A stretch of 64,000 nucleotides of DNA from an uncultured Spartobacteria bacterium (GTDB taxonomy: Bacteria > Verrucomicrobiota > Verrucomicrobiia > Chthoniobacterales > Chthoniobacteraceae). The stretch covers positions 3,680 to 67,679 of the forward strand of contig CAIRYQ010000023.1 of the NCBI GenBank assembly GCA_903882875.1, read 5' to 3'. The position numbers and the translations under genes were made by a program. Under the pieces are notes generated by a model. The model saw only the letters and a list, made by a program, of their open reading frames with translations. It had not been told where the DNA came from and did not search any database. Shown here piece after piece: positions 38,418 through 44,910 of this stretch (its first letter is position 1; each line of letters begins with the position of its first letter).

Positions 38418-38666
38418 ATGAATGTGAAACCCACCGCCCTCGGCATCATCCTCATTGTCGCGCTCCTCCAGCAGGGATGCATTGTCGCCCGTGTCGTCAC
38501 GTCCCCGATCCGGTACGCCGAGCACCGCGCGGAAATCGCGAGGGCCAAAAAGCGCGGTGAGCGGGAGGCCGAAAAGCGCAGCGAGAAGGAAGCCGAGAAG
38601 AGGGAAGCCCCGCCGGCGCACATCGAGCGGCCCGATGCCCCGCCTCCGGAAGCGCCCGCGAACTAG
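38418..38666 (+). CDS. Small lipoprotein with charged Lys/Glu/Arg-rich tail (hypothetical)
   Basis: MNVKPTALGIILIVALLQQGC lipobox-like N-terminus. Short, no homology recognised. Confidence 0.45.
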   Translation: MNVKPTALGIILIVALLQQGCIVARVVTSPIRYAEHRAEIARAKKRGEREAEKRSEKEAEKREAPPAHIERPDAPPPEAPAN

Positions 38667-38730
38667 CACGCGCCCGGCAGGCTGCGGCAGCGCGTTTCAT
38701 GGACTTCATCGAGGGCCAACGGCCCCGCAC

Positions 38731-38914
38731 AAGCCAGCCCAGGGCAAGTCCGCGTGATGGCTGCATCACGCGGACGCCGCCCTGGGATCTGAATGAAGAA
38801 TGATCAATGCCCTGAAGGGGCGGGACAAACCGTGTGGCGCCCCTTCAGGGCTTTGTCCTTTTTCCACGCTATTCCCAGGGCGGCGCTCGTTCCTCGCTTG
38901 CCCTGGGCTGGCTT
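38731..38914. repeat. 184-nt perfectly nested palindromic element (four perfect helices)
   Basis: P1 38731-38748 pairs with 38897-38914 (18 bp). P2 is a hairpin, 38748-38759 with 38764-38775 (12 bp). P3 38776-38786 pairs with 38874-38884 (11 bp). P4 is a hairpin, 38809-38822 with 38838-38851 (14 bp), followed by a T-rich run. Confidence 0.75.
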
Positions 38915-39101
38915 GTTCCGGGCCTTTGGCCCGCGATGCACCGCGGTTTTCAAAGTGCATGACACGCTGCGGCAACGGCCAAGATCCAACGAACACACCC
39001 TCGCCGGGATTGCCCGTCGCACACTTCACCGCTATTCCCGACACCATGCGTGAGCGGGCGGGAGGAAAACGGATCGGAGCGCGCAACGCGGAGCACGGAT
39101 T

Positions 39102-39156
39102 GTGACTGGTGACTGGTGACTGGTGAATGGATGGGCGCTTCTAGTCACCAGTCACA
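39102..39156. repeat. Inverted heptamer arrays (GTGACTG x3.5 / CAGTCAC x2) forming a hairpin in the 5' leader of the 39197 gene
   Basis: gtgactggtgactggtgactggtga, then a 16-nt spacer, then agtcaccagtcaca. The arms are reverse complements over 13 nt. Confidence 0.8.
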
Positions 39157-39196
39157 GCCTCTTGCCCGCCGCACCTTTCCAATTTATCCACGCACC

Positions 39197-42100
39197 ATGC
39201 GCACGCCCCTCCTCTCCCTCGTCCTCGCACTCGCAGCGATTTTTTCCACGCACGCCGCCGAGCCCTTTGAGATAAAAGACGGCGACCGCGTCCTCTTCCT
39301 CGGGGACACGCTCCTCGAACGCGAGGGCACCTACGGCTACCTCGAGACCCGCATGGCCGAGCAGTTCCCCGACCGGAAGTTCACCGTGCGCAACCTCGCC
39401 TTCAGCGCCGACACGCCGCTCGGCTGGTCGCGCGCGTCGTTCGACCCCGCGGCGAAGGGCTTCGAGCGGCTGAAGGAGCAGCTCGCGCTCGTGCAGCCCA
39501 CGGTCGTCTTCCTCGGCTACGGCATGGCCGCGAGCCTGCAGGAAATGACCGACCGCTCGCAGGACTGGACGCTGAACCGCGACACCGCCCGCTACGGTGC
39601 CGAGCCGATGAGCGCCGGGCGGTTCAAACGCGAGCTTGCACAACTCATGGACGCAATCGTGGAGGGAAACCGGAAACCGGATACCGGATACCGGAAAGGG
39701 GAAGATGGCGACGCTGACGCGTCGAAGCAGAATCTATCCGGTATCCGGTATCCGGTATCCGGTTTCCGTTTCGTCCTGCTCTCGCCGATCCGGCACGAGG
39801 ACTTGCGCGCGACGCGCCCCGGCCTGCCCGACCCGACGGAGCACAACAAGCTGCTGGAGCAATACAGCAAGGCCATCGAGGAACTGGCGAAGGAGCGCGG
39901 GGCGCGGTTTGTCTCGCTGAACTTCCCGTTAATCTACCATCTCACACCCGAGCAAATCGCGACGAATATGGGAGGGCCGAATCCGATTCTCTTGACGGAC
40001 AACGGCATCCATCTCAACGAGGTGGGTTACGTCGGGATGCTGCGCCAAATGTGTGAGGCTCTCAGTTGGGGCAGCTACCTCGGGAAGGGAGTGGCGCTCG
40101 GTGAACCCATTTCCACACCGCCGGGACCCAAATTCACTCAGGAGGATATCGCGGCATCTTTGAAATGGCATGAGCGCAAGGAAGCCCTCCGCGCCGCCAT
40201 CATCCGCAAGAACGCGCTCTTCTTCCACCGCTGGCGGCCGGCGAATGAGACCTACCTCTTCGGCTTCCGCAAACGCGAGCAGGGGCAGAACGCCGTCGAG
40301 ATTCCGAAGTTCGACCCGCTCATCGAAGCCGCCGAGGCCGAGATCGAGAAGCTGAAGCACGCTCCCAAGGGGGCCAGCGTCATGCCCTCCGAAGACGGGG
40401 CCACGGCTGACATTCACGGCGGCGTGTCCCCCGAACTCCCTGCTGTGTCCGCCGAACACCGGTCGGTGTCTGGCGAACACCGATCGGTGTCTGACGAACA
40501 CCGGTCGGTGTCTGGCGAACACCGGTCGGTGTCTGACGAACACCGGTCGGTGTCTGGCGAACACCGGTCGGTGTCTGGCGAACACCGGTCGGTGTCTGAC
40601 GAACACCGGTCAGTGTCTGACGAACACCGGTCGGTGTTTGACGAACACCGGTCGGTGTTTGACGAACACCGGTCGGTGTTTGACGAACACACAGCCGCTT
40701 CCGCGCAGCAAAAGGCCGATTTTCAGCCACAAACGCCCGTTTTCACCTCCGCCGGCCAACTTTACGCAGCCAACGACACCCCGGCGATCGGGAACCAGCC
40801 CCCAGTCACCAGTCACCAGTCACCAGTCACATCCCCCGACCCCGCCCGCCAGACCCCCGCCGAGACGCCCGACCTTTCCAAGCTCCCCGCCTCGCCCTCC
40901 ACCCTCCCGCTCCCCACCTTCACCCTCGCCGACGGCCTCGAAATCTCCCTCTGGGCCGAAAACCCGCTCCTCGCCAAGCCGACCGAGATGAATTGGGACG
41001 CACAGGGCCGCCTGTGGGTGGCGAGCAGCGCACTGTATCCCATGATCGCCCCCGGCCAGGCGGCGGACGACAAAATCCTCATCCTCGAAGACCCCGGCCA
41101 CACGGGGAAGGGGACGAAGAGCACGGTCTTCGTGGACGGGCTGCTGCTGCCGACGGGGGTGGCACCGGTGCTCGTGGAAGACCGGAAAGCGGATACCGGA
41201 AACCGGAAAGGGGAAGATGGCGACGCTGACGCGTCTAAGCAGAATCTATCCGGTATCCGCTCTCCGGTATCCGGTATCGCCCGCTGGGCCTGCTACGTCG
41301 GCCAGTCCACCGAGCTGCTCTACTTCGAGGACACGCAAGGCACCGGCAAGGCGGACAAAAAGCGCATCGTCCTCAGCGGATTCGGCACCGAGGACACGCA
41401 CCACATCGTCCACACCCTGCGCTGGGGGCCGGATGGCCGGCTCTATTTTAACCAAAGCGTGTACATCCACACGCACATGGAGACGCCGTGGGGCGTCGTG
41501 CGGCTGAACAGCGGCGGCGTCTTCGCCTACGACCCGCGCACCGAGCGCGTGGAAGTCGTCACGAAGGGCCTCTGGAACACGTGGGGCCACGCATGGGACC
41601 AATGGGGCCAGAGCTTCCTCTCGGATGGCGCGGGCTTCAGCGGCATCTCGTGGGCATTCCCCGGAGCCGTCTTCAACCCGAGCGAAGGCAGCCGCCGGCA
41701 GATGCCCAGCATCAGCCCCGGCAGCTACCCGAAATTCGCCGGCCTCGAGCTCATCTACAGCCCGCACTTCCCCGCCGAGTGGCAGGGCACGGCGGTGACG
41801 TGCGACTTCCGCGCGCACAAAATCGTGCATTTCAAGATCAACGACCTCGGTTTGGAGCAGTCAGCAAAGAGCGGCTACGTCACCGATCAGCTCCCCGTGC
41901 TTGCGCAGACGAGCGACGCGACCTTCCGCCCGATTGACGTGAAGCTCGGCCCCGACGGCGCGATCTACATCGCCGACTGGAGCAACCCGATCATCAACCA
42001 CGGCGAAGTGGACTTCCGCGACCCGCGCCGCGACCACGAGCACGGCCGCATCTGGCGCCTGAGCATGAAGGGTGGAGCGGCGGTGAAGTGGGAGAGTCTG

Positions 42101-44182
42101 GTGGGGAAAAATAAGGAGGAGCTAATTTCAGCGCGCCGTTCAAAAAGCCAATGGGCACTGGAACAAGCGACTCACTTGCTAATCTACAGACCGCACACCG
42201 AAGCAGAACGCCAAGCCAGCCGCGACAGCTTGCTCGTCCAGATGCTTACCGACCCGGCGGCTCAATTTGAGGTTCCCGCATTACTCATCCTCAATACCAG
42301 GCCTCGCATCCGCATCGGAGCGATGCGAGCACTTGCGCGCTTACCAAAAATCGAAAGCGCCTCGCTCATCCTCGACGCCGCGATCAACGCGCCGAAGGAC
42401 GATCCGTTTTACGAGTTCGCCGCGTGGCTTTCCATCAATGACGTCGCGGAGGTCTGGACGGAGGCGGTGCTCGCCGGGAAATGGAAAATCGAGGGGCGCG
42501 AGAAGCAGTTGGAGTTTGCGCTCGATGCGCTGGATGCGGCCCGCTCCGGCCCCGTCATCGCCGCGCTGCTCAAGGAGCGGCCCATCACCCGCGACGGCGC
42601 GGGCCCGTGGATCGAGCTCATCGGCAAAGGCGGCGGCAAGGCCGAGCTGGAGCAGCTTTTCGAGCGTGTCGCGAAGGGCGACTTCGAGCCGCCCGCATTC
42701 GTCCGCGCGATCAACGCGCTCGCCGACGCCGCCCGCCTCCGCAACCTCCGCCCCGAGGGCAACCTTGCATCCATCAGAATGTGCCTCGTCGATCCTCATG
42801 CGGAGATCGCTTCCGCCGCCGCGCGCCTTGCGGGCCAGTGGCATCTTTCCGAAGTCGTGCCGTATATCGTCAATCTCGCACAGCATCCGGATGAGGGACC
42901 GCGCGCCGCCGCAATCGAGGGATTGCGCAACGTCGGCGGTGCCAAGGCCGTTGACGGGCTGCTATCCCTGACGCGCTCGAGAAGACCGGAGGTTCGGCCC
43001 GCCGCCCTCGCCGCGCTCGCGCAGCTCAAGCCCGCCGCCGCCATTTCCGAAATCCCGACCGTGCTCGGCGCAATCCAGTCCGAGCCCGAGCTGCTCGCCA
43101 CATGGCGCGGCATTTTCCAATCGAAGGAAGCCGCCGACACGCTGGCGAAGAACTTTCCGGCGGACCTCCCGAAGCCCGTCATCACCGCCGCGCTGCACGC
43201 CGCGCGCGAGCTTGGCCGCAAGGGCGAACGTCTCGTCGCGAAACTCGCGCCGCTCGCCGGCGAGAGCCTCGCGAATTTCGTCCCCGCCGATTTCGCCGAC
43301 CTCGCCGCCCGCGCGAAAAAGGACGGCGACCCCGTGGCCGGCGAAGCCCTGTATCGCCGCATGGCCAGCGCCTGCACGACCTGCCACGCCATTGGCGGAG
43401 CCGGCGGCAAGCTCGGCCCCGACCTCACGAGCATCGGCGCGAGCGCACCGGCGGACTACATCATCGAGAGCGTGCTGAACCCCGCCGCGAAAGTGAAGGA
43501 AGGCTACCATGCGTTTTCCTTCGCGATGAAGGACGGCACCGAGGCCATCGGCATCCCGACGCGCGAGACGCCGCAGGAGCAGTTCATCCGCACGATCGCC
43601 GGCGAGCAGGGACTGCCGAAGGCGAACATCGTTTCCAAAAAAATCGCCGAGGGCGGCGCAAGCCTGATGCCCGCCGGCCTCACCGCCGCATGGAGCGACC
43701 GCGAGCGGCTGAACCTCTACGCATTCCTCATGGAGCTGGGCCGCCCCGGCCCCTTCGACGCGAGCAAGAACAACGTGGCGCGCGTGTGGCAGCTCACCGA
43801 CTCCGGCAAAGTGGACGGCGCTCTGAAAGTCGAAGCCGCAGCGTCCACGCCGTCCATCCCGTCCACCTACGCCTACACCCTCGTGGACGGTCGCCTCACC
43901 AAGGACCTCCTCACCGAGAAGCTCGCCATCCTCCAGCCGAAGAACACCGCCGTGCATCTCACCGCGCGCTTCCAAGCCGCGAGCGCCGGCAAGGCCAAGC
44001 TCAACCTCACCGGCATCCGCAAAGCCTGGCTCGACGGCCAGCCCCTCGCCATCGCCAGCGAGCCGAGCCCGAGCGTCGAACTGACCGCAGGCGCGCACAC
44101 TTTCACCGTCGAAGTGGACGCCAAGTCCCCGCCCGAAGTCCTGCGCCTCGAATCGCCCGCGGCGAATTTCCTCGGGGACTGA
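39197..44182 (+). CDS. Giant secreted multidomain protein: SGNH/GDSL-like hydrolase + PVC-type membrane-bound-dehydrogenase beta-propeller + HEAT repeats + CxxCH cytochrome c domain
   Basis: The ATG at 39197 gives signal peptide MRTPLLSLVLALAAIFSTHA. SGNH block DGDRVLFLGDTLLERE. FTLADGLEISLWAENPLLAKPTEMNWDAQGRLWVA matches the Pirellula/Verrucomicrobium dehydrogenase N-domain type. HEAT-like repeats (VRPAALAALAQL). Heme motif CTTCHAIGGAGGKLGPDL. Contains three repeat families, listed separately. Confidence 0.85.
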   Translation: MRTPLLSLVLALAAIFSTHAAEPFEIKDGDRVLFLGDTLLEREGTYGYLETRMAEQFPDRKFTVRNLAFSADTPLGWSRASFDPAAKGFERLKEQLALVQPTVVFLGYGMAASLQEMTDRSQDWTLNRDTARYGAEPMSAGRFKRELAQLMDAIVEGNRKPDTGYRKGEDGDADASKQNLSGIRYPVSGFRFVLLSPIRHEDLRATRPGLPDPTEHNKLLEQYSKAIEELAKERGARFVSLNFPLIYHLTPEQIATNMGGPNPILLTDNGIHLNEVGYVGMLRQMCEALSWGSYLGKGVALGEPISTPPGPKFTQEDIAASLKWHERKEALRAAIIRKNALFFHRWRPANETYLFGFRKREQGQNAVEIPKFDPLIEAAEAEIEKLKHAPKGASVMPSEDGATADIHGGVSPELPAVSAEHRSVSGEHRSVSDEHRSVSGEHRSVSDEHRSVSGEHRSVSGEHRSVSDEHRSVSDEHRSVFDEHRSVFDEHRSVFDEHTAASAQQKADFQPQTPVFTSAGQLYAANDTPAIGNQPPVTSHQSPVTSPDPARQTPAETPDLSKLPASPSTLPLPTFTLADGLEISLWAENPLLAKPTEMNWDAQGRLWVASSALYPMIAPGQAADDKILILEDPGHTGKGTKSTVFVDGLLLPTGVAPVLVEDRKADTGNRKGEDGDADASKQNLSGIRSPVSGIARWACYVGQSTELLYFEDTQGTGKADKKRIVLSGFGTEDTHHIVHTLRWGPDGRLYFNQSVYIHTHMETPWGVVRLNSGGVFAYDPRTERVEVVTKGLWNTWGHAWDQWGQSFLSDGAGFSGISWAFPGAVFNPSEGSRRQMPSISPGSYPKFAGLELIYSPHFPAEWQGTAVTCDFRAHKIVHFKINDLGLEQSAKSGYVTDQLPVLAQTSDATFRPIDVKLGPDGAIYIADWSNPIINHGEVDFRDPRRDHEHGRIWRLSMKGGAAVKWESLVGKNKEELISARRSKSQWALEQATHLLIYRPHTEAERQASRDSLLVQMLTDPAAQFEVPALLILNTRPRIRIGAMRALARLPKIESASLILDAAINAPKDDPFYEFAAWLSINDVAEVWTEAVLAGKWKIEGREKQLEFALDALDAARSGPVIAALLKERPITRDGAGPWIELIGKGGGKAELEQLFERVAKGDFEPPAFVRAINALADAARLRNLRPEGNLASIRMCLVDPHAEIASAAARLAGQWHLSEVVPYIVNLAQHPDEGPRAAAIEGLRNVGGAKAVDGLLSLTRSRRPEVRPAALAALAQLKPAAAISEIPTVLGAIQSEPELLATWRGIFQSKEAADTLAKNFPADLPKPVITAALHAARELGRKGERLVAKLAPLAGESLANFVPADFADLAARAKKDGDPVAGEALYRRMASACTTCHAIGGAGGKLGPDLTSIGASAPADYIIESVLNPAAKVKEGYHAFSFAMKDGTEAIGIPTRETPQEQFIRTIAGEQGLPKANIVSKKIAEGGASLMPAGLTAAWSDRERLNLYAFLMELGRPGPFDASKNNVARVWQLTDSGKVDGALKVEAAASTPSIPSTYAYTLVDGRLTKDLLTEKLAILQPKNTAVHLTARFQAASAGKAKLNLTGIRKAWLDGQPLAIASEPSPSVELTAGAHTFTVEVDAKSPPEVLRLESPAANFLGD
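39665..39771. repeat. Intragenic palindromic element, copy 1 (inverted heptamer-array arms + 43-nt core), in frame
   Basis: Left arm ggaaaccggaaaccggataccggataccgg. Right arm ccggtatccggtatccggtatccggtttccg (reverse complement). The 58-nt core 39690-39747 is 57/58 identical to 41202-41259. Confidence 0.85.
40445..40690 (+). repeat. 21-nt tandem repeat, ~11.7 copies, in frame (VS[G/D/A]EHRS)n
   Basis: The unit gaacaccggtcggtgtctg[g/a]c is repeated head to tail. Each unit contains the palindrome acaccg-gt-cggtgt. The last three units share a variant (ttt, giving VFDEHRS). Confidence 0.9.
40803..40830 (+). repeat. Heptamer array CAGTCAC x4 inside the CDS
   Basis: Exactly four tandem copies. 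It is the same heptamer family as the leader hairpin at 39102-39156. Confidence 0.9.
41181..41280. repeat. Intragenic palindromic element, copy 2, in frame
   Basis: accggaaagcggataccggaaaccgg, then the core, then ccggtatccgctctccggtatccggtatcg. It has the same codon phase as copy 1 and encodes the near-identical peptide RKGEDGDADASKQNLSGIR. Confidence 0.85.
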
Positions 44183-44186
44183 TCCC

Positions 44187-44287
44187 CGTAGCCGCCGGCG
44201 GAAGGAGGCGGGCTGATCTTTCTTTCCGCGTTCCGAGATCCGAACTCCGCACTTCAAGGCACCCGCCTCCTTCCGTCGGCGGCTACG
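44187..44287. repeat. REP-like inverted repeat (27-nt arms, 47-nt spacer) just after the stop of the giant gene
   Basis: cgtagccgccggcggaaggaggcgggc (44187-44213) versus acccgcctccttccgtcggcggctacg (44261-44287), 25/27 complementary. A solo arm copy gccgacggaaggaggcgggc lies at 51794-51813. Confidence 0.8.
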
Positions 44288-44350
44288 ATAATTCTCCGCT
44301 CGCCTTGAGGTCACCTGAACTGCTCTCGTCCCCGGCACTTTTCACAGGCC

Positions 44351-44910
44351 ATGCCGTCACGAACATCCATTACGGATGAAGCCGTCAGCGCCATCCGTTC
44401 GCTGTACGAAAGCGGCGCCTACGTCGCGGCGTGGCAGCGCACGCAGTCGCTGCCGCCATTCCGCGAATGGGCCGGCGCTGCCGCGCTCACGATCGCGGGA
44501 CGGCTGCTGAACAACCTCGAAGCGCCGCGGCTCGCGCACGCGCTACATGCCCGCGCATGGCGGGAGCATCGCGGCGACCCCGATGCAGCGTATTACCGTG
44601 CGAGCACGATCGCCCGGCGCTTCGGTCCGTTGCGTGCGCTGCGCTTCCTCGACTCGCTTCCGCGACTTCGAGCGCGCGGATGCGCTGCTGAAGGAGGCGC
44701 TGGAACTCGACGGCACGAGCGCGTGGCTGTGGGTCGAGCACGCGTGGTGCATGGAGCGTGCGGACCGTTACGCCGCCGCGCTCGAATCCGCCCGGCGCGC
44801 ATTCGATCTGTGACCATGGTACCGGCCTGCGGTGCAGCGCGTCGCGCATCTTCTCACGCTGCTCGGCCGCGATGATGATGCGCTCGCCTTGCTCCGCGAT
44901 GCATCGGCGC
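44351..44910 (+). pseudogene. Decayed helical-repeat (TPR-like) gene: frameshift, in-frame TGA, then IS insertion. A 3' remnant continues at 47333-47512.
   Basis: The reading frame switches near 44657-44664 (FLDSLP / RDFERADALLKEALELDG). There is an in-frame TGA at 44811-44813. Joining 44911 to 47341 restores the frame (...DASARFIIYDWQSIG...). Confidence 0.55.

What the first reader, a model, noticed from the sequence alone, without database searches (positions are those of the whole stretch)
40445..40690. 21-nt tandem array (~11.7 units) in frame, each unit a mini-palindrome
The unit gaacaccggtcggtgtctg[g/a]c repeats head to tail and encodes (VS[G/D]EHRS)n in the linker between the SGNH domain and the propeller. 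Each unit contains acaccg-gt-cggtgt, so the DNA or RNA can form a ladder of small hairpins or slipped structures. Unit variants are ordered: G/D alternation first, then three identical terminal VFDEHRS units. That order indicates recent stepwise expansion. The array is a likely length-variable (VNTR-like) linker in a secreted protein.
Basis: seen in the sequence. Interest (0 to 1): 0.55.

Follow-up and report, generated by a model that had tools for sequence, protein, structure and literature searches.

The report
In-frame 21-base repeat lengthening a linker
A 21-base unit repeated about twelve times sits in frame in the spacer between two domains of a large secreted Verrucomicrobial protein; it behaves like an ordinary length-variable coding repeat, but this genome and its genus build nearly all their longer tandem repeats in steps of 21 bases, and nothing found here explains that.

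Summary
Window 40445-40690 holds 11.7 head-to-tail copies of a 21-nt unit (TRF score 415; no match in shuffles). It lies in frame in a 1661-aa SGNH / beta-propeller / HEAT / cytochrome c protein, in the interdomain linker.

- A second public assembly encodes the same protein, residue for residue, minus exactly one of the three identical 3'-terminal units.
- The unit was not found in 29 other species of the genus.
- Orthologs have either a 54-58 aa linker or other repeats at this site.
- The array decays at its 5' end and is homogeneous at its 3' end.

The mini-palindrome is real and lets the whole array fold back on itself (z -7.8). It is not a general feature of this genome's arrays.

The wider result is that 49 of the genome's long arrays have period 21 (8 have 22, 7 have 42). 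Most are intergenic, the units are species-specific, and some adjoin a REPIN-like element. All 13 repeat-expanded ortholog linkers have periods of 21, 42 or 63 nt. The cause of this 21-nt quantum is unknown. Earlier notes of this scan report 21- and 42-bp arrays in other Verrucomicrobia; I did not check them.

The parts
39197..44182 (+). Host gene: 1661-aa PVC-type heme-binding protein (signal peptide, SGNH/GDSL hydrolase, linker, DUF7133 beta-propeller, HEAT repeats, cytochrome c CxxCH, C-terminal domain)
   Evidence: An ORF is open from 39116. Public records start the same protein at ATG 39197 (P0122). Pfam matches: GDSL_2, DUF7133 (2.4e-60), HEAT_2, Cytochrome_CBB3. The N-terminus MRTPLLSLVLALAAIFSTHA/AEP reads as a Sec signal peptide; this is read from the sequence and was not tested.
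40307..40954 (+). Interdomain linker (KFDPLIEAAEAEIEKLK ... LPLPTFTLADGLEISLW). It is 216 aa here and 54-58 aa in the shortest orthologs.
   Evidence: Ortholog alignment and anchor motifs.
40409..40450 (+). Two decayed 21-nt units at the 5' edge (DIHGGVS, PELPAVS). The second is 14/21 like the consensus.
   Evidence: Phase-aligned listing of units; sequence.
40451..40690 (+). Core array: 11 full units of GNC GAA CAC CGG TCG GTG TCT, encoding [A/G/D]EHRSV[S/F], plus a truncated twelfth unit. Each unit contains ACACCG-GT-CGGTGT.
40619..40681 (+). Three identical youngest units (DEHRSVF). One of them is missing in the second assembly (P0002).
40794..40830 (+). Heptamer module (ACCAGTC)x5.3 in the same linker, 104 nt after the array. 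It belongs to a dispersed module family and is not part of the 21-nt array.
   Evidence: TRF. BLAST finds this 30-nt module on about 30 contigs of the genome.

Best explanation
The feature is a coding minisatellite (VNTR). A 21-nt unit, equal to 7 codons, has been amplified head to tail inside a permissive interdomain linker of a secreted or periplasmic multidomain protein. It adds about 82 residues of (S/F)(G/D)EHRSV spacer between the SGNH domain and the propeller.

It gains and loses whole units by slipped-strand mispairing or unequal recombination, mostly at its 3' end. Every change keeps the reading frame because 21 is a multiple of 3. Units are homogenised within the species and replaced between species (concerted evolution). 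The partly palindromic unit lets either strand fold back on itself in many registers, which should favour slippage.

The peptide is most likely a tolerated spacer and not a specific functional motif. The array is one instance of a lineage-wide tendency to form tandem arrays with a 21-nt (or 22/42-nt) period. That tendency acts on DNA and not on protein.

Shown: the array, its frame and position; one unit-number variant; species specificity; ortholog linker diversity; fold-back potential; the genome-wide 21-nt quantum.
Inferred: the slippage mechanism, 3'-end polarity, and neutrality of the peptide.
For: - Array and frame.
- Position between domains.
- Unit-number variant in an otherwise identical 1654-aa protein from an independent assembly.
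- Gradient from decayed 5' units to three identical 3' units.
- Variant sites within the units are 2 synonymous and 2 non-synonymous (G/D, S>F), so the peptide shows no sign of constraint.
- Unit not found in 29 congeneric species and two public contig collections.
- The nearest relative (about 80% identical in the domains) has (DSKSVMA)n at the same site. Others have (DERRAAS)n, a 21-aa unit, (PSAMxxA)n or 14-aa units. Minimal orthologs have 54-58 aa.
- Fold-back: RNA -153.9 kcal/mol, z -7.8; DNA z -5.8; the MFE structure has a very low frequency in the ensemble, meaning many registers.
- Genome-wide, arrays with at least 4.5 copies: period 21 n=49, 22 n=8, 42 n=7, 7 n=38, every other period 8 or fewer.
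- Only 2 of 45 long 21-nt arrays are clearly inside a CDS.
- No conserved structure: AF2 predicts a helix for this array and coil for G003's.
Against: - Only one copy-number variant was found. It lies in the 63-nt run of identical units, where assembly collapse is possible. Three other contigs carry the same 11-unit allele, so the locus is not hypervariable.
- AF2 (single sequence) predicts the array as one long helix with pLDDT 91-96. This argues against a purely floppy spacer and leaves room for a structural role.
- The cause of the 21-nt period is not explained by simple slippage.
Confidence: 0.78

Rival explanations
1. The array is a module of a mobile or copyable repeat class. A pre-formed 21-nt array from the genome's dispersed array families, some of which adjoin a REPIN-like palindrome with a RAYT-like Y1 transposase, was inserted or converted into the linker. 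It did not grow there in situ.
For: - The array aligns over its whole length at 68-71% with two intergenic arrays, C31:44644-44932 and C6:85589-85856. The unit consensus is 16/21 identical to C6's in the same phase.
- Unit families recur at several loci: 58 unit pairs within 6 mismatches against 1 in shuffles.
- About 10 arrays of different families adjoin the same 235-nt palindromic element.
- 2 of 3 Y1_Tnp genes have a 21-nt array within 2 kb.
- Unrelated arrays occupy the same linker in different species.
Against: - The flanks of this array are unique coding sequence, with no REPIN element or shared flank.
- The proposed shared 'tail' was not significant by BLAST.
- The 5' decay gradient and the related units in the closest relatives (DERRAAS, 4/7 identical) fit long residence and in-situ turnover.
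- I estimate the chance of a 16/21 unit match among about 50 arrays at roughly 1-5%. That is suggestive only.
Confidence: 0.12
2. The repeat encodes a selected structural element: a rigid single alpha-helix or heptad-based rod that sets the distance and rotational phase between the SGNH domain and the propeller. Unit number would tune that distance by about 1 nm, or two helical turns, per unit.
For: - AF2 predicts residues 44-136 of the linker segment as one continuous helix with pLDDT 91-96.
- The unit is exactly a heptad.
- R and D lie at i, i+4.
Against: - The prediction is single-sequence on a perfect repeat, a case where AF2 confidence is unreliable.
- Each heptad holds two Ser, half of them hold Gly, and only one residue is hydrophobic, so there is no a/d core.
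- Orthologous arrays are Pro/Ser/Thr-rich, and G003's is predicted as coil at pLDDT about 50.
- Many orthologs work with a 54-58 aa linker.
- Most of the genome's 21-nt arrays are non-coding, so the heptad period does not come from protein structure.
Confidence: 0.07
3. The array, or its apparent copy-number difference, is an artefact of short-read metagenome assembly.
For: The genome is a 129-contig draft in which many 21-nt arrays sit at contig ends. The only difference between the two alleles lies in a run of identical units.
Against: - The array is internal to a 74.6-kb contig.
- Unit-specific variants anchor most of its units.
- It keeps a 1661-aa frame open.
- The same 11-unit protein is on record from 3 contigs.
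- An artefact could affect the count of terminal units but not the existence of the array.
Confidence: 0.03

Closest known systems
In-frame variable-number tandem repeats (coding minisatellites) of bacterial secreted and surface proteins, as reviewed in PMC3899988; textbook examples recalled from my own knowledge are the 24-nt X-region repeats of Staphylococcus aureus spa and the SD repeats of clfA
   Same: Unit length is a multiple of 3. The array sits in a spacer region of an exported protein. Whole units are gained or lost without a frameshift. Units are homogenised within a lineage. The proposed mechanism is slipped-strand mispairing.
   Different: The host is an uncultured soil Verrucomicrobium and not a pathogen under immune selection. 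The array is one of about 50 arrays in the genome with the same 21-nt period but different sequences, and most of those are non-coding. The unit is partly palindromic.
In-frame 21-bp repeat linker of RecE-like prophage exonucleases in E. coli
   Same: A 21-nt unit in frame that encodes a polar 7-aa spacer with occasional unit-number changes between strains.
   Different: Unrelated gene and sequence. No genome-wide 21-nt class has been reported there.
REP/BIME clusters and REPINs with their RAYT (Y1) transposase
   Same: The unit holds a short palindrome. This genome has a REPIN-like 235-nt palindromic element and a Y1_Tnp gene flanked by its two halves, and several 21-nt arrays adjoin that element.
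   Different: This array is strictly head to tail with no spacers, and it is in frame in a CDS. Its unit is found at this one locus only. No REPIN copy or Y1 gene lies beside it. Most of the genome's 21-nt units are not palindromic.
Heptanucleotide simple repeats (cyanobacterial STRR; (GGGAATC)n of Xanthomonas) and the heptamer modules of this genus (earlier notes e1-3039747, e1-3039750)
   Same: The period is a multiple of 7. Heptamer modules occur in the same gene and the same linker (40794-40830).
   Different: The 21-nt unit shows no internal 7-nt periodicity: 6/21 matches at shift 7 for this unit. Across 44 arrays the fraction is 0.305 at shift 7, against 0.21-0.28 at shifts 2-10.

Membership tests
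Coding minisatellite / VNTR | Head-to-tail copies of a unit of 10 nt or more, far beyond chance | tested here: met
   21 nt x 11.7, TRF score 415. 11 matches against 0 in shuffles.
Coding minisatellite / VNTR | Unit length is a multiple of 3 and the array is in frame inside an intact gene | tested here: met
   The 1661-aa ORF is open through the array. Codon-position GC on both flanks fits one frame.
Coding minisatellite / VNTR | Unit number differs between isolates or assemblies of the same species | tested here: inconclusive
   One allele has one unit fewer in an otherwise identical protein from another assembly. Three contigs share the 11-unit allele. Assembly collapse is not excluded, and no reads were available.
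Coding minisatellite / VNTR | Units are more alike within an array than between orthologous arrays (concerted evolution) | tested here: met
   94% identity within the array. The closest orthologs have different units at the same site.
Phase-variation (contingency) switch by repeat slippage | A change of unit number shifts the reading frame or the promoter spacing and turns the gene on or off | tested here: not met
   The unit is 21 nt (7 codons) and lies mid-gene, so gain or loss keeps the frame. The 10-unit allele is a full-length protein.
REP / REPIN-type palindromic repeats | Many dispersed copies of the same palindromic unit, associated with a RAYT | tested here: not met
   The unit occurs only at this locus in the genome. 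The flanks hold no REPIN-like element. The Y1_Tnp genes lie on other contigs.
Coiled coil / single alpha-helix domain | Heptads with hydrophobic a and d positions, or E/K/R-rich i,i+4 salt-bridge pattern, conserved among orthologs | tested here: not met
   Each heptad has one hydrophobic residue, and Ser and Gly are frequent. Orthologous arrays are Pro/Ser/Thr-rich and one is predicted as coil. AF2 does predict a helix for this array, so local helicity remains possible.
Known structured RNA | Match to an Rfam family | tested here: not met
   No Rfam hit at gathering threshold in 38500-44600.

The most novel reading that the evidence does not exclude
This Verrucomicrobial lineage has a dedicated DNA-level process that creates and amplifies tandem arrays with a fixed quantum of 21-22 bp, about two helical turns. 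The process could be linked to its REPIN/Y1-transposase system or to some protein with a footprint of that size. It would seed species-specific satellite families in intergenic DNA and, where 21 = 7 codons is tolerated, in protein linkers. The array in this gene would be one of its products. That would be a new kind of length-quantised prokaryotic satellite DNA, and it would explain why every repeat-expanded ortholog linker in the genus has a 7-, 14- or 21-aa period.
Probability: 0.25. Interest if true: 0.7.

Novelty: new member of a known kind. Interest (0 to 1): 0.42.

Why it matters
Taken alone, the array is an ordinary coding VNTR. It could serve as a strain marker, and it is an example of how a linker in a large periplasmic enzyme tolerates rapid change in length and sequence.

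The context is the more interesting part. In this genome nearly all longer tandem arrays have a period of exactly 21 nt (or 22/42), whether coding or not, and each species has its own units. The same linker in a dozen related species has been expanded only in steps of 21 nt. If a specific mechanism sets this quantum, it is undescribed in the papers I could search. It would also bear on how repeat-rich, disordered or helical linkers arise in bacterial proteins.

Tried and rejected
1. Exact two-unit pattern in metagenome contigs and genome contigs: no hit. The same pattern with up to 3 mismatches in 29 species of the genus: no hit.
3. The search for related loci in metagenomes returned only two distant loci. 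DNA of the closest orthologs (P0003-P0005) could not be obtained, so unit homology with them rests on peptides only.
4. Idea that palindromic units define the 21-nt class: rejected. Only 11% of units are more self-complementary than their shuffles at p<=0.05. This unit's 6-bp stem has p about 0.08.
5. Idea that 21-nt units are three decayed heptamers: not supported for this unit and weak overall.
6. Idea that the 21-nt period follows from codon constraint: rejected, because most long 21-nt arrays have no coding signal on one or both sides.
7. Idea that array plus downstream 'tail' (AQQKADFQPQTPVFT) is one inserted element shared with intergenic arrays: BLAST found no significant tail similarity.
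8. The Pfam 'grass antifreeze beta roll' match at residues 445-508 is below the curated cut-off (28 vs 30 bits). I take it to reflect the repeated SVSG motif and not homology. AF2 gives a helix and no beta roll.
9. Rfam: nothing.
10. Literature searches for quantised 21-bp arrays or heptanucleotide repeats in Verrucomicrobia found nothing relevant.
11. DNA comparison with G003's array at the same site: 7/21 matches in phase, so homology is not demonstrable.

Full report
**Observation.** TRF reports one array at 40445-40690 with period 21, 11.7 copies, 94% matches, no indels and score 415. This is the strongest repeat in the 64-kb window. The consensus 21-mer matches 11 times with at most 2 mismatches, and never in 100 dinucleotide-preserving shuffles.

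Read in codon phase:
- Eleven full units lie at 40451-40681. Each reads GNC GAA CAC CGG TCG GTG TCT and encodes [A/G/D]-E-H-R-S-V-[S/F].
- Two decayed units precede them at 40409-40450 (DIHGGVS, PELPAVS). The second is 14/21 like the consensus.
- A truncated unit follows, and the right boundary is sharp.
- Four sites vary among the units. Two are synonymous singletons (CGG>CGA in unit 2, TCG>TCA in unit 8). Two are non-synonymous (GGC/GAC, which is Gly/Asp, and TCT>TTT, which is Ser>Phe).
- The last three units (40619-40681) are identical.

**Host gene.** The array lies in an ORF open from 39116 to 44182. Public records start the protein at ATG 39197, giving 1661 aa (P0122).
- The N-terminus (MRTPLLSLVLALAAIFSTHA/AEP) reads as a Sec signal peptide. 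This is read from the sequence and was not tested.
- Pfam finds GDSL_2 (residues 70-305 of the long ORF), DUF7133 (2.4e-60), HEAT_2 and a cbb3-type cytochrome c domain.
- Relatives are named 'PVC-type heme-binding CxxCH protein' from Chthoniobacter and other Verrucomicrobia.
- The array sits in the linker between the conserved helix KFDPLIEAAEAEIEKLK and the start of the propeller, LPLPTFTLADGLEISLW.

**Copy-number evidence.** A search of the linker region against 5.8 billion proteins returned P0002. It is 1654 aa and comes from an ENA metagenome contig of 13.3 kb. It is identical to the window's protein over its whole length, except that it has two VFDEHRS units instead of three. The 11-unit form is on record from three contigs.

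So two assemblies of essentially the same organism differ by exactly one unit, at the homogeneous 3' end where slippage is expected. The same stretch is also where a short-read assembler is most likely to miscount. I rate this as probable but unproven polymorphism, about 60:40.

**Species specificity and orthologs.** The two-unit pattern is absent from the metagenome and genome contig collections. With up to 3 mismatches it was also not found in 29 other species of the genus.

I fetched the orthologous locus from about 25 congeneric genomes and aligned the linkers.
- The linker is 54-58 aa with no repeat in G002, G009, G018, G035, G038, G040 and this genome's own paralog on C78.
- Among 59 family members for which I could locate both anchors, the median linker is 62 aa.
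- Every strongly expanded linker is expanded by a tandem repeat whose period is 21, 42 or 63 nt:

| Source | Repeat in the linker |
|---|---|
| This genome | (EHRSVSD) x 11.7 |
| P0003 | (DSKSVMA) x about 10 |
| P0004 | (DERRAAS) x about 5 |
| P0005 | 21-aa unit x 5 |
| P0037 | (NPRVDAA) x 3-4 |
| G003 | (PSAMxxA) x 12 |
| G016 | (QPSKDVx) x 7 |
| G037 | 7- and 14-aa units |
| G014 and G004 | related 14-aa unit x 9-10 |
| G007, G031, G033 | three further, different 14-aa units |

That is 13 of 13 arrays, with at least 10 unrelated unit sequences. The nearest relative, P0003, is only about 80% identical in the domains and already has a different unit. P0004's unit shares 4 of 7 residues with this one. 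This pattern fits rapid turnover with homogenisation within each lineage.

**Structure of the nucleic acid.** The core ACACCG-GT-CGGTGT makes every unit complementary to every other unit. ViennaRNA therefore folds the strand into one long imperfect fold-back, not a ladder of mini-hairpins.
- As RNA: -153.9 kcal/mol against -112 +/- 5.4 for shuffles, z -7.8.
- As DNA: z -5.8.
- The MFE structure has a very low frequency in the ensemble, which means many alternative registers.

Fold-back of this kind is a plausible promoter of slippage. However, a 6-bp stem occurs in about 8% of shuffles of this 21-mer, and only about 11% of the genome's 21-nt units are significantly self-complementary. The palindrome is real but is not what defines the class.

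**Structure of the peptide.** AlphaFold2 without an alignment predicts the array as one continuous helix with pLDDT 91-96 and low-confidence flanks. The orthologous array of G003 is predicted as coil at pLDDT about 50. Single-sequence predictions of perfect repeats are unreliable, and the heptad has two Ser, often a Gly, and only one hydrophobic residue. No structure is conserved across orthologs. I read the peptide as a tolerated spacer, possibly locally helical in this species.

**Genome-wide context.** The window is C23:3680-67679 of a 5.78-Mb, 129-contig, 62% G+C genome. The unit occurs nowhere else in it. TRF on the whole genome shows a striking pattern.
- Among arrays with at least 4.5 copies, 49 have period 21, 8 have 22, 7 have 42 and 38 have 7. 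Every other period has 8 or fewer.
- Two-copy repeats of 21 nt are also over-represented: 93, the same as for 18 nt, against 23 for 24 nt.
- The units differ between arrays but fall into families that recur at several loci. There are 58 unit pairs within 6 mismatches, against 1 in shuffles.
- This array's nearest relatives are two intergenic arrays, C31:44644-44932 and C6:85589-85856. They align at 68-71% over the whole array, and the unit consensus is 16/21 identical to C6's in the same phase.
- By a codon-position G+C test, only this array and one other (C68:122130) are clearly embedded in frame in a CDS. Most lie between genes or at gene ends. The 21-nt quantum is therefore not a consequence of the reading frame.
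- The largest array family of this genome was not found in the 29 other species.
- A 400-kb sample of relative G014 also has its longest short-unit arrays at 21, 22, 42 and 44 nt. A 400-kb sample of G008 has few arrays of any kind.
- Two earlier notes of this scan describe 21-bp and 41-42-bp arrays in other Verrucomicrobia. I did not check them.

**Possible link to a mobile system.** Many arrays share flanking sequence. The shared part is a roughly 235-nt highly palindromic element with terminal inverted repeats TCCGGTTGCYTGACACAG, present at more than 20 loci.
- The genome has three Y1_Tnp (PF01797) genes.
- The one at C92:13522-13872 is flanked by the two halves of that element in inverted orientation, which is the RAYT/REPIN arrangement.
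- The other two Y1_Tnp genes each have a 21-nt array within 2 kb.

This association is suggestive, but nothing of the kind adjoins the array under study. A proposed shared 'tail' downstream of arrays was not significant.

**Conclusion.** The finding is a genuine in-frame minisatellite in a permissive linker. It evolves by gain and loss of whole units, and there is one probable copy-number variant on record. That makes it a new member of a well-known kind (coding VNTRs; general review PMC3899988). The unexplained and potentially new part is the strict 21-nt (22/42) quantum of tandem arrays in this genome and genus. It holds in coding and non-coding DNA alike. Four literature searches found no description of it.

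Noticed in passing
G000 whole genome, e.g. C128:15000-15578, C15:152837-153220, C117:76369-76698, C68:122130-122374: About 50 long tandem arrays have a period of exactly 21 nt and different, species-specific units. The longest has 27.6 copies. Most are intergenic or at gene ends and many sit at contig ends. Periods 7, 21, 22 and 42 dominate all long arrays.
   Followed up: partly
G000 C87:1-469, C53:697-1014, C17:99868-100105, C115:75872-76108, C89:1-175, C101:43923-44034, C105:18974-19099: A family of 22-nt arrays shares the core GAGTGGTCG....GACAT. Several also share a conserved flank of about 115 nt on one side (…GAAACCGCAAAAACAGCC…). The layout is a conserved flank followed by an array without spacers.
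   Followed up: no
G000 C69:29165-29412, C59:26520-26764, C80:41482-41717 and more than 20 other loci; C92:13340-13975: A roughly 235-nt highly palindromic REPIN-like element has terminal inverted repeats TCCGGTTGCYTGACACAG. A Y1_Tnp (PF01797) gene at C92:13522-13872 is flanked by the two halves of this element, like a RAYT. About 10 arrays of 21/22 nt from different unit families lie directly beside copies of the element.
   Followed up: partly
G000 C3:7678-7841 with C3:8763-9101; C120:116235-116402 with C120:118198-118536: The two other Y1_Tnp genes of the genome each have a 21-nt array within 1-2 kb.
   Followed up: no
window 39660-39775 and 41170-41285; 39102-39156; 40794-40830: The same gene carries two in-frame copies of a heptamer-armed palindrome, (GGAAACC)n...(TATCCGG)n. 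It also carries GTGACTG/CAGTCAC heptamer modules in the leader and in the linker. The CAGTCAC module recurs on about 30 contigs of the genome. Other reports of this scan already cover these.
   Followed up: no
L014 (G008:C3:387800-394800) and L024 (G004:C170:10400-17400): The orthologs in G008 and G004 are split over several reading frames. This means either frameshifts or assembly errors near their repeats. In G004 the break lies just after its 42-nt array.
   Followed up: no
P0005 (JGI metagenome ortholog), propeller loop matching window about 41170-41285: Where this genome has the heptamer palindrome, this ortholog has an insertion of about 150 aa that carries a further Pfam domain (PF22461). 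The same surface loop accepts very different inserts.
   Followed up: no
window 40448-40640 (residues 445-508 of P0001): Pfam 'LbR_Ice_bind' (grass antifreeze beta roll) scores 28 bits, just under its cut-off of 30. The repeated SVSG motif probably causes this. AF2 gives a helix and no beta roll.
   Followed up: yes
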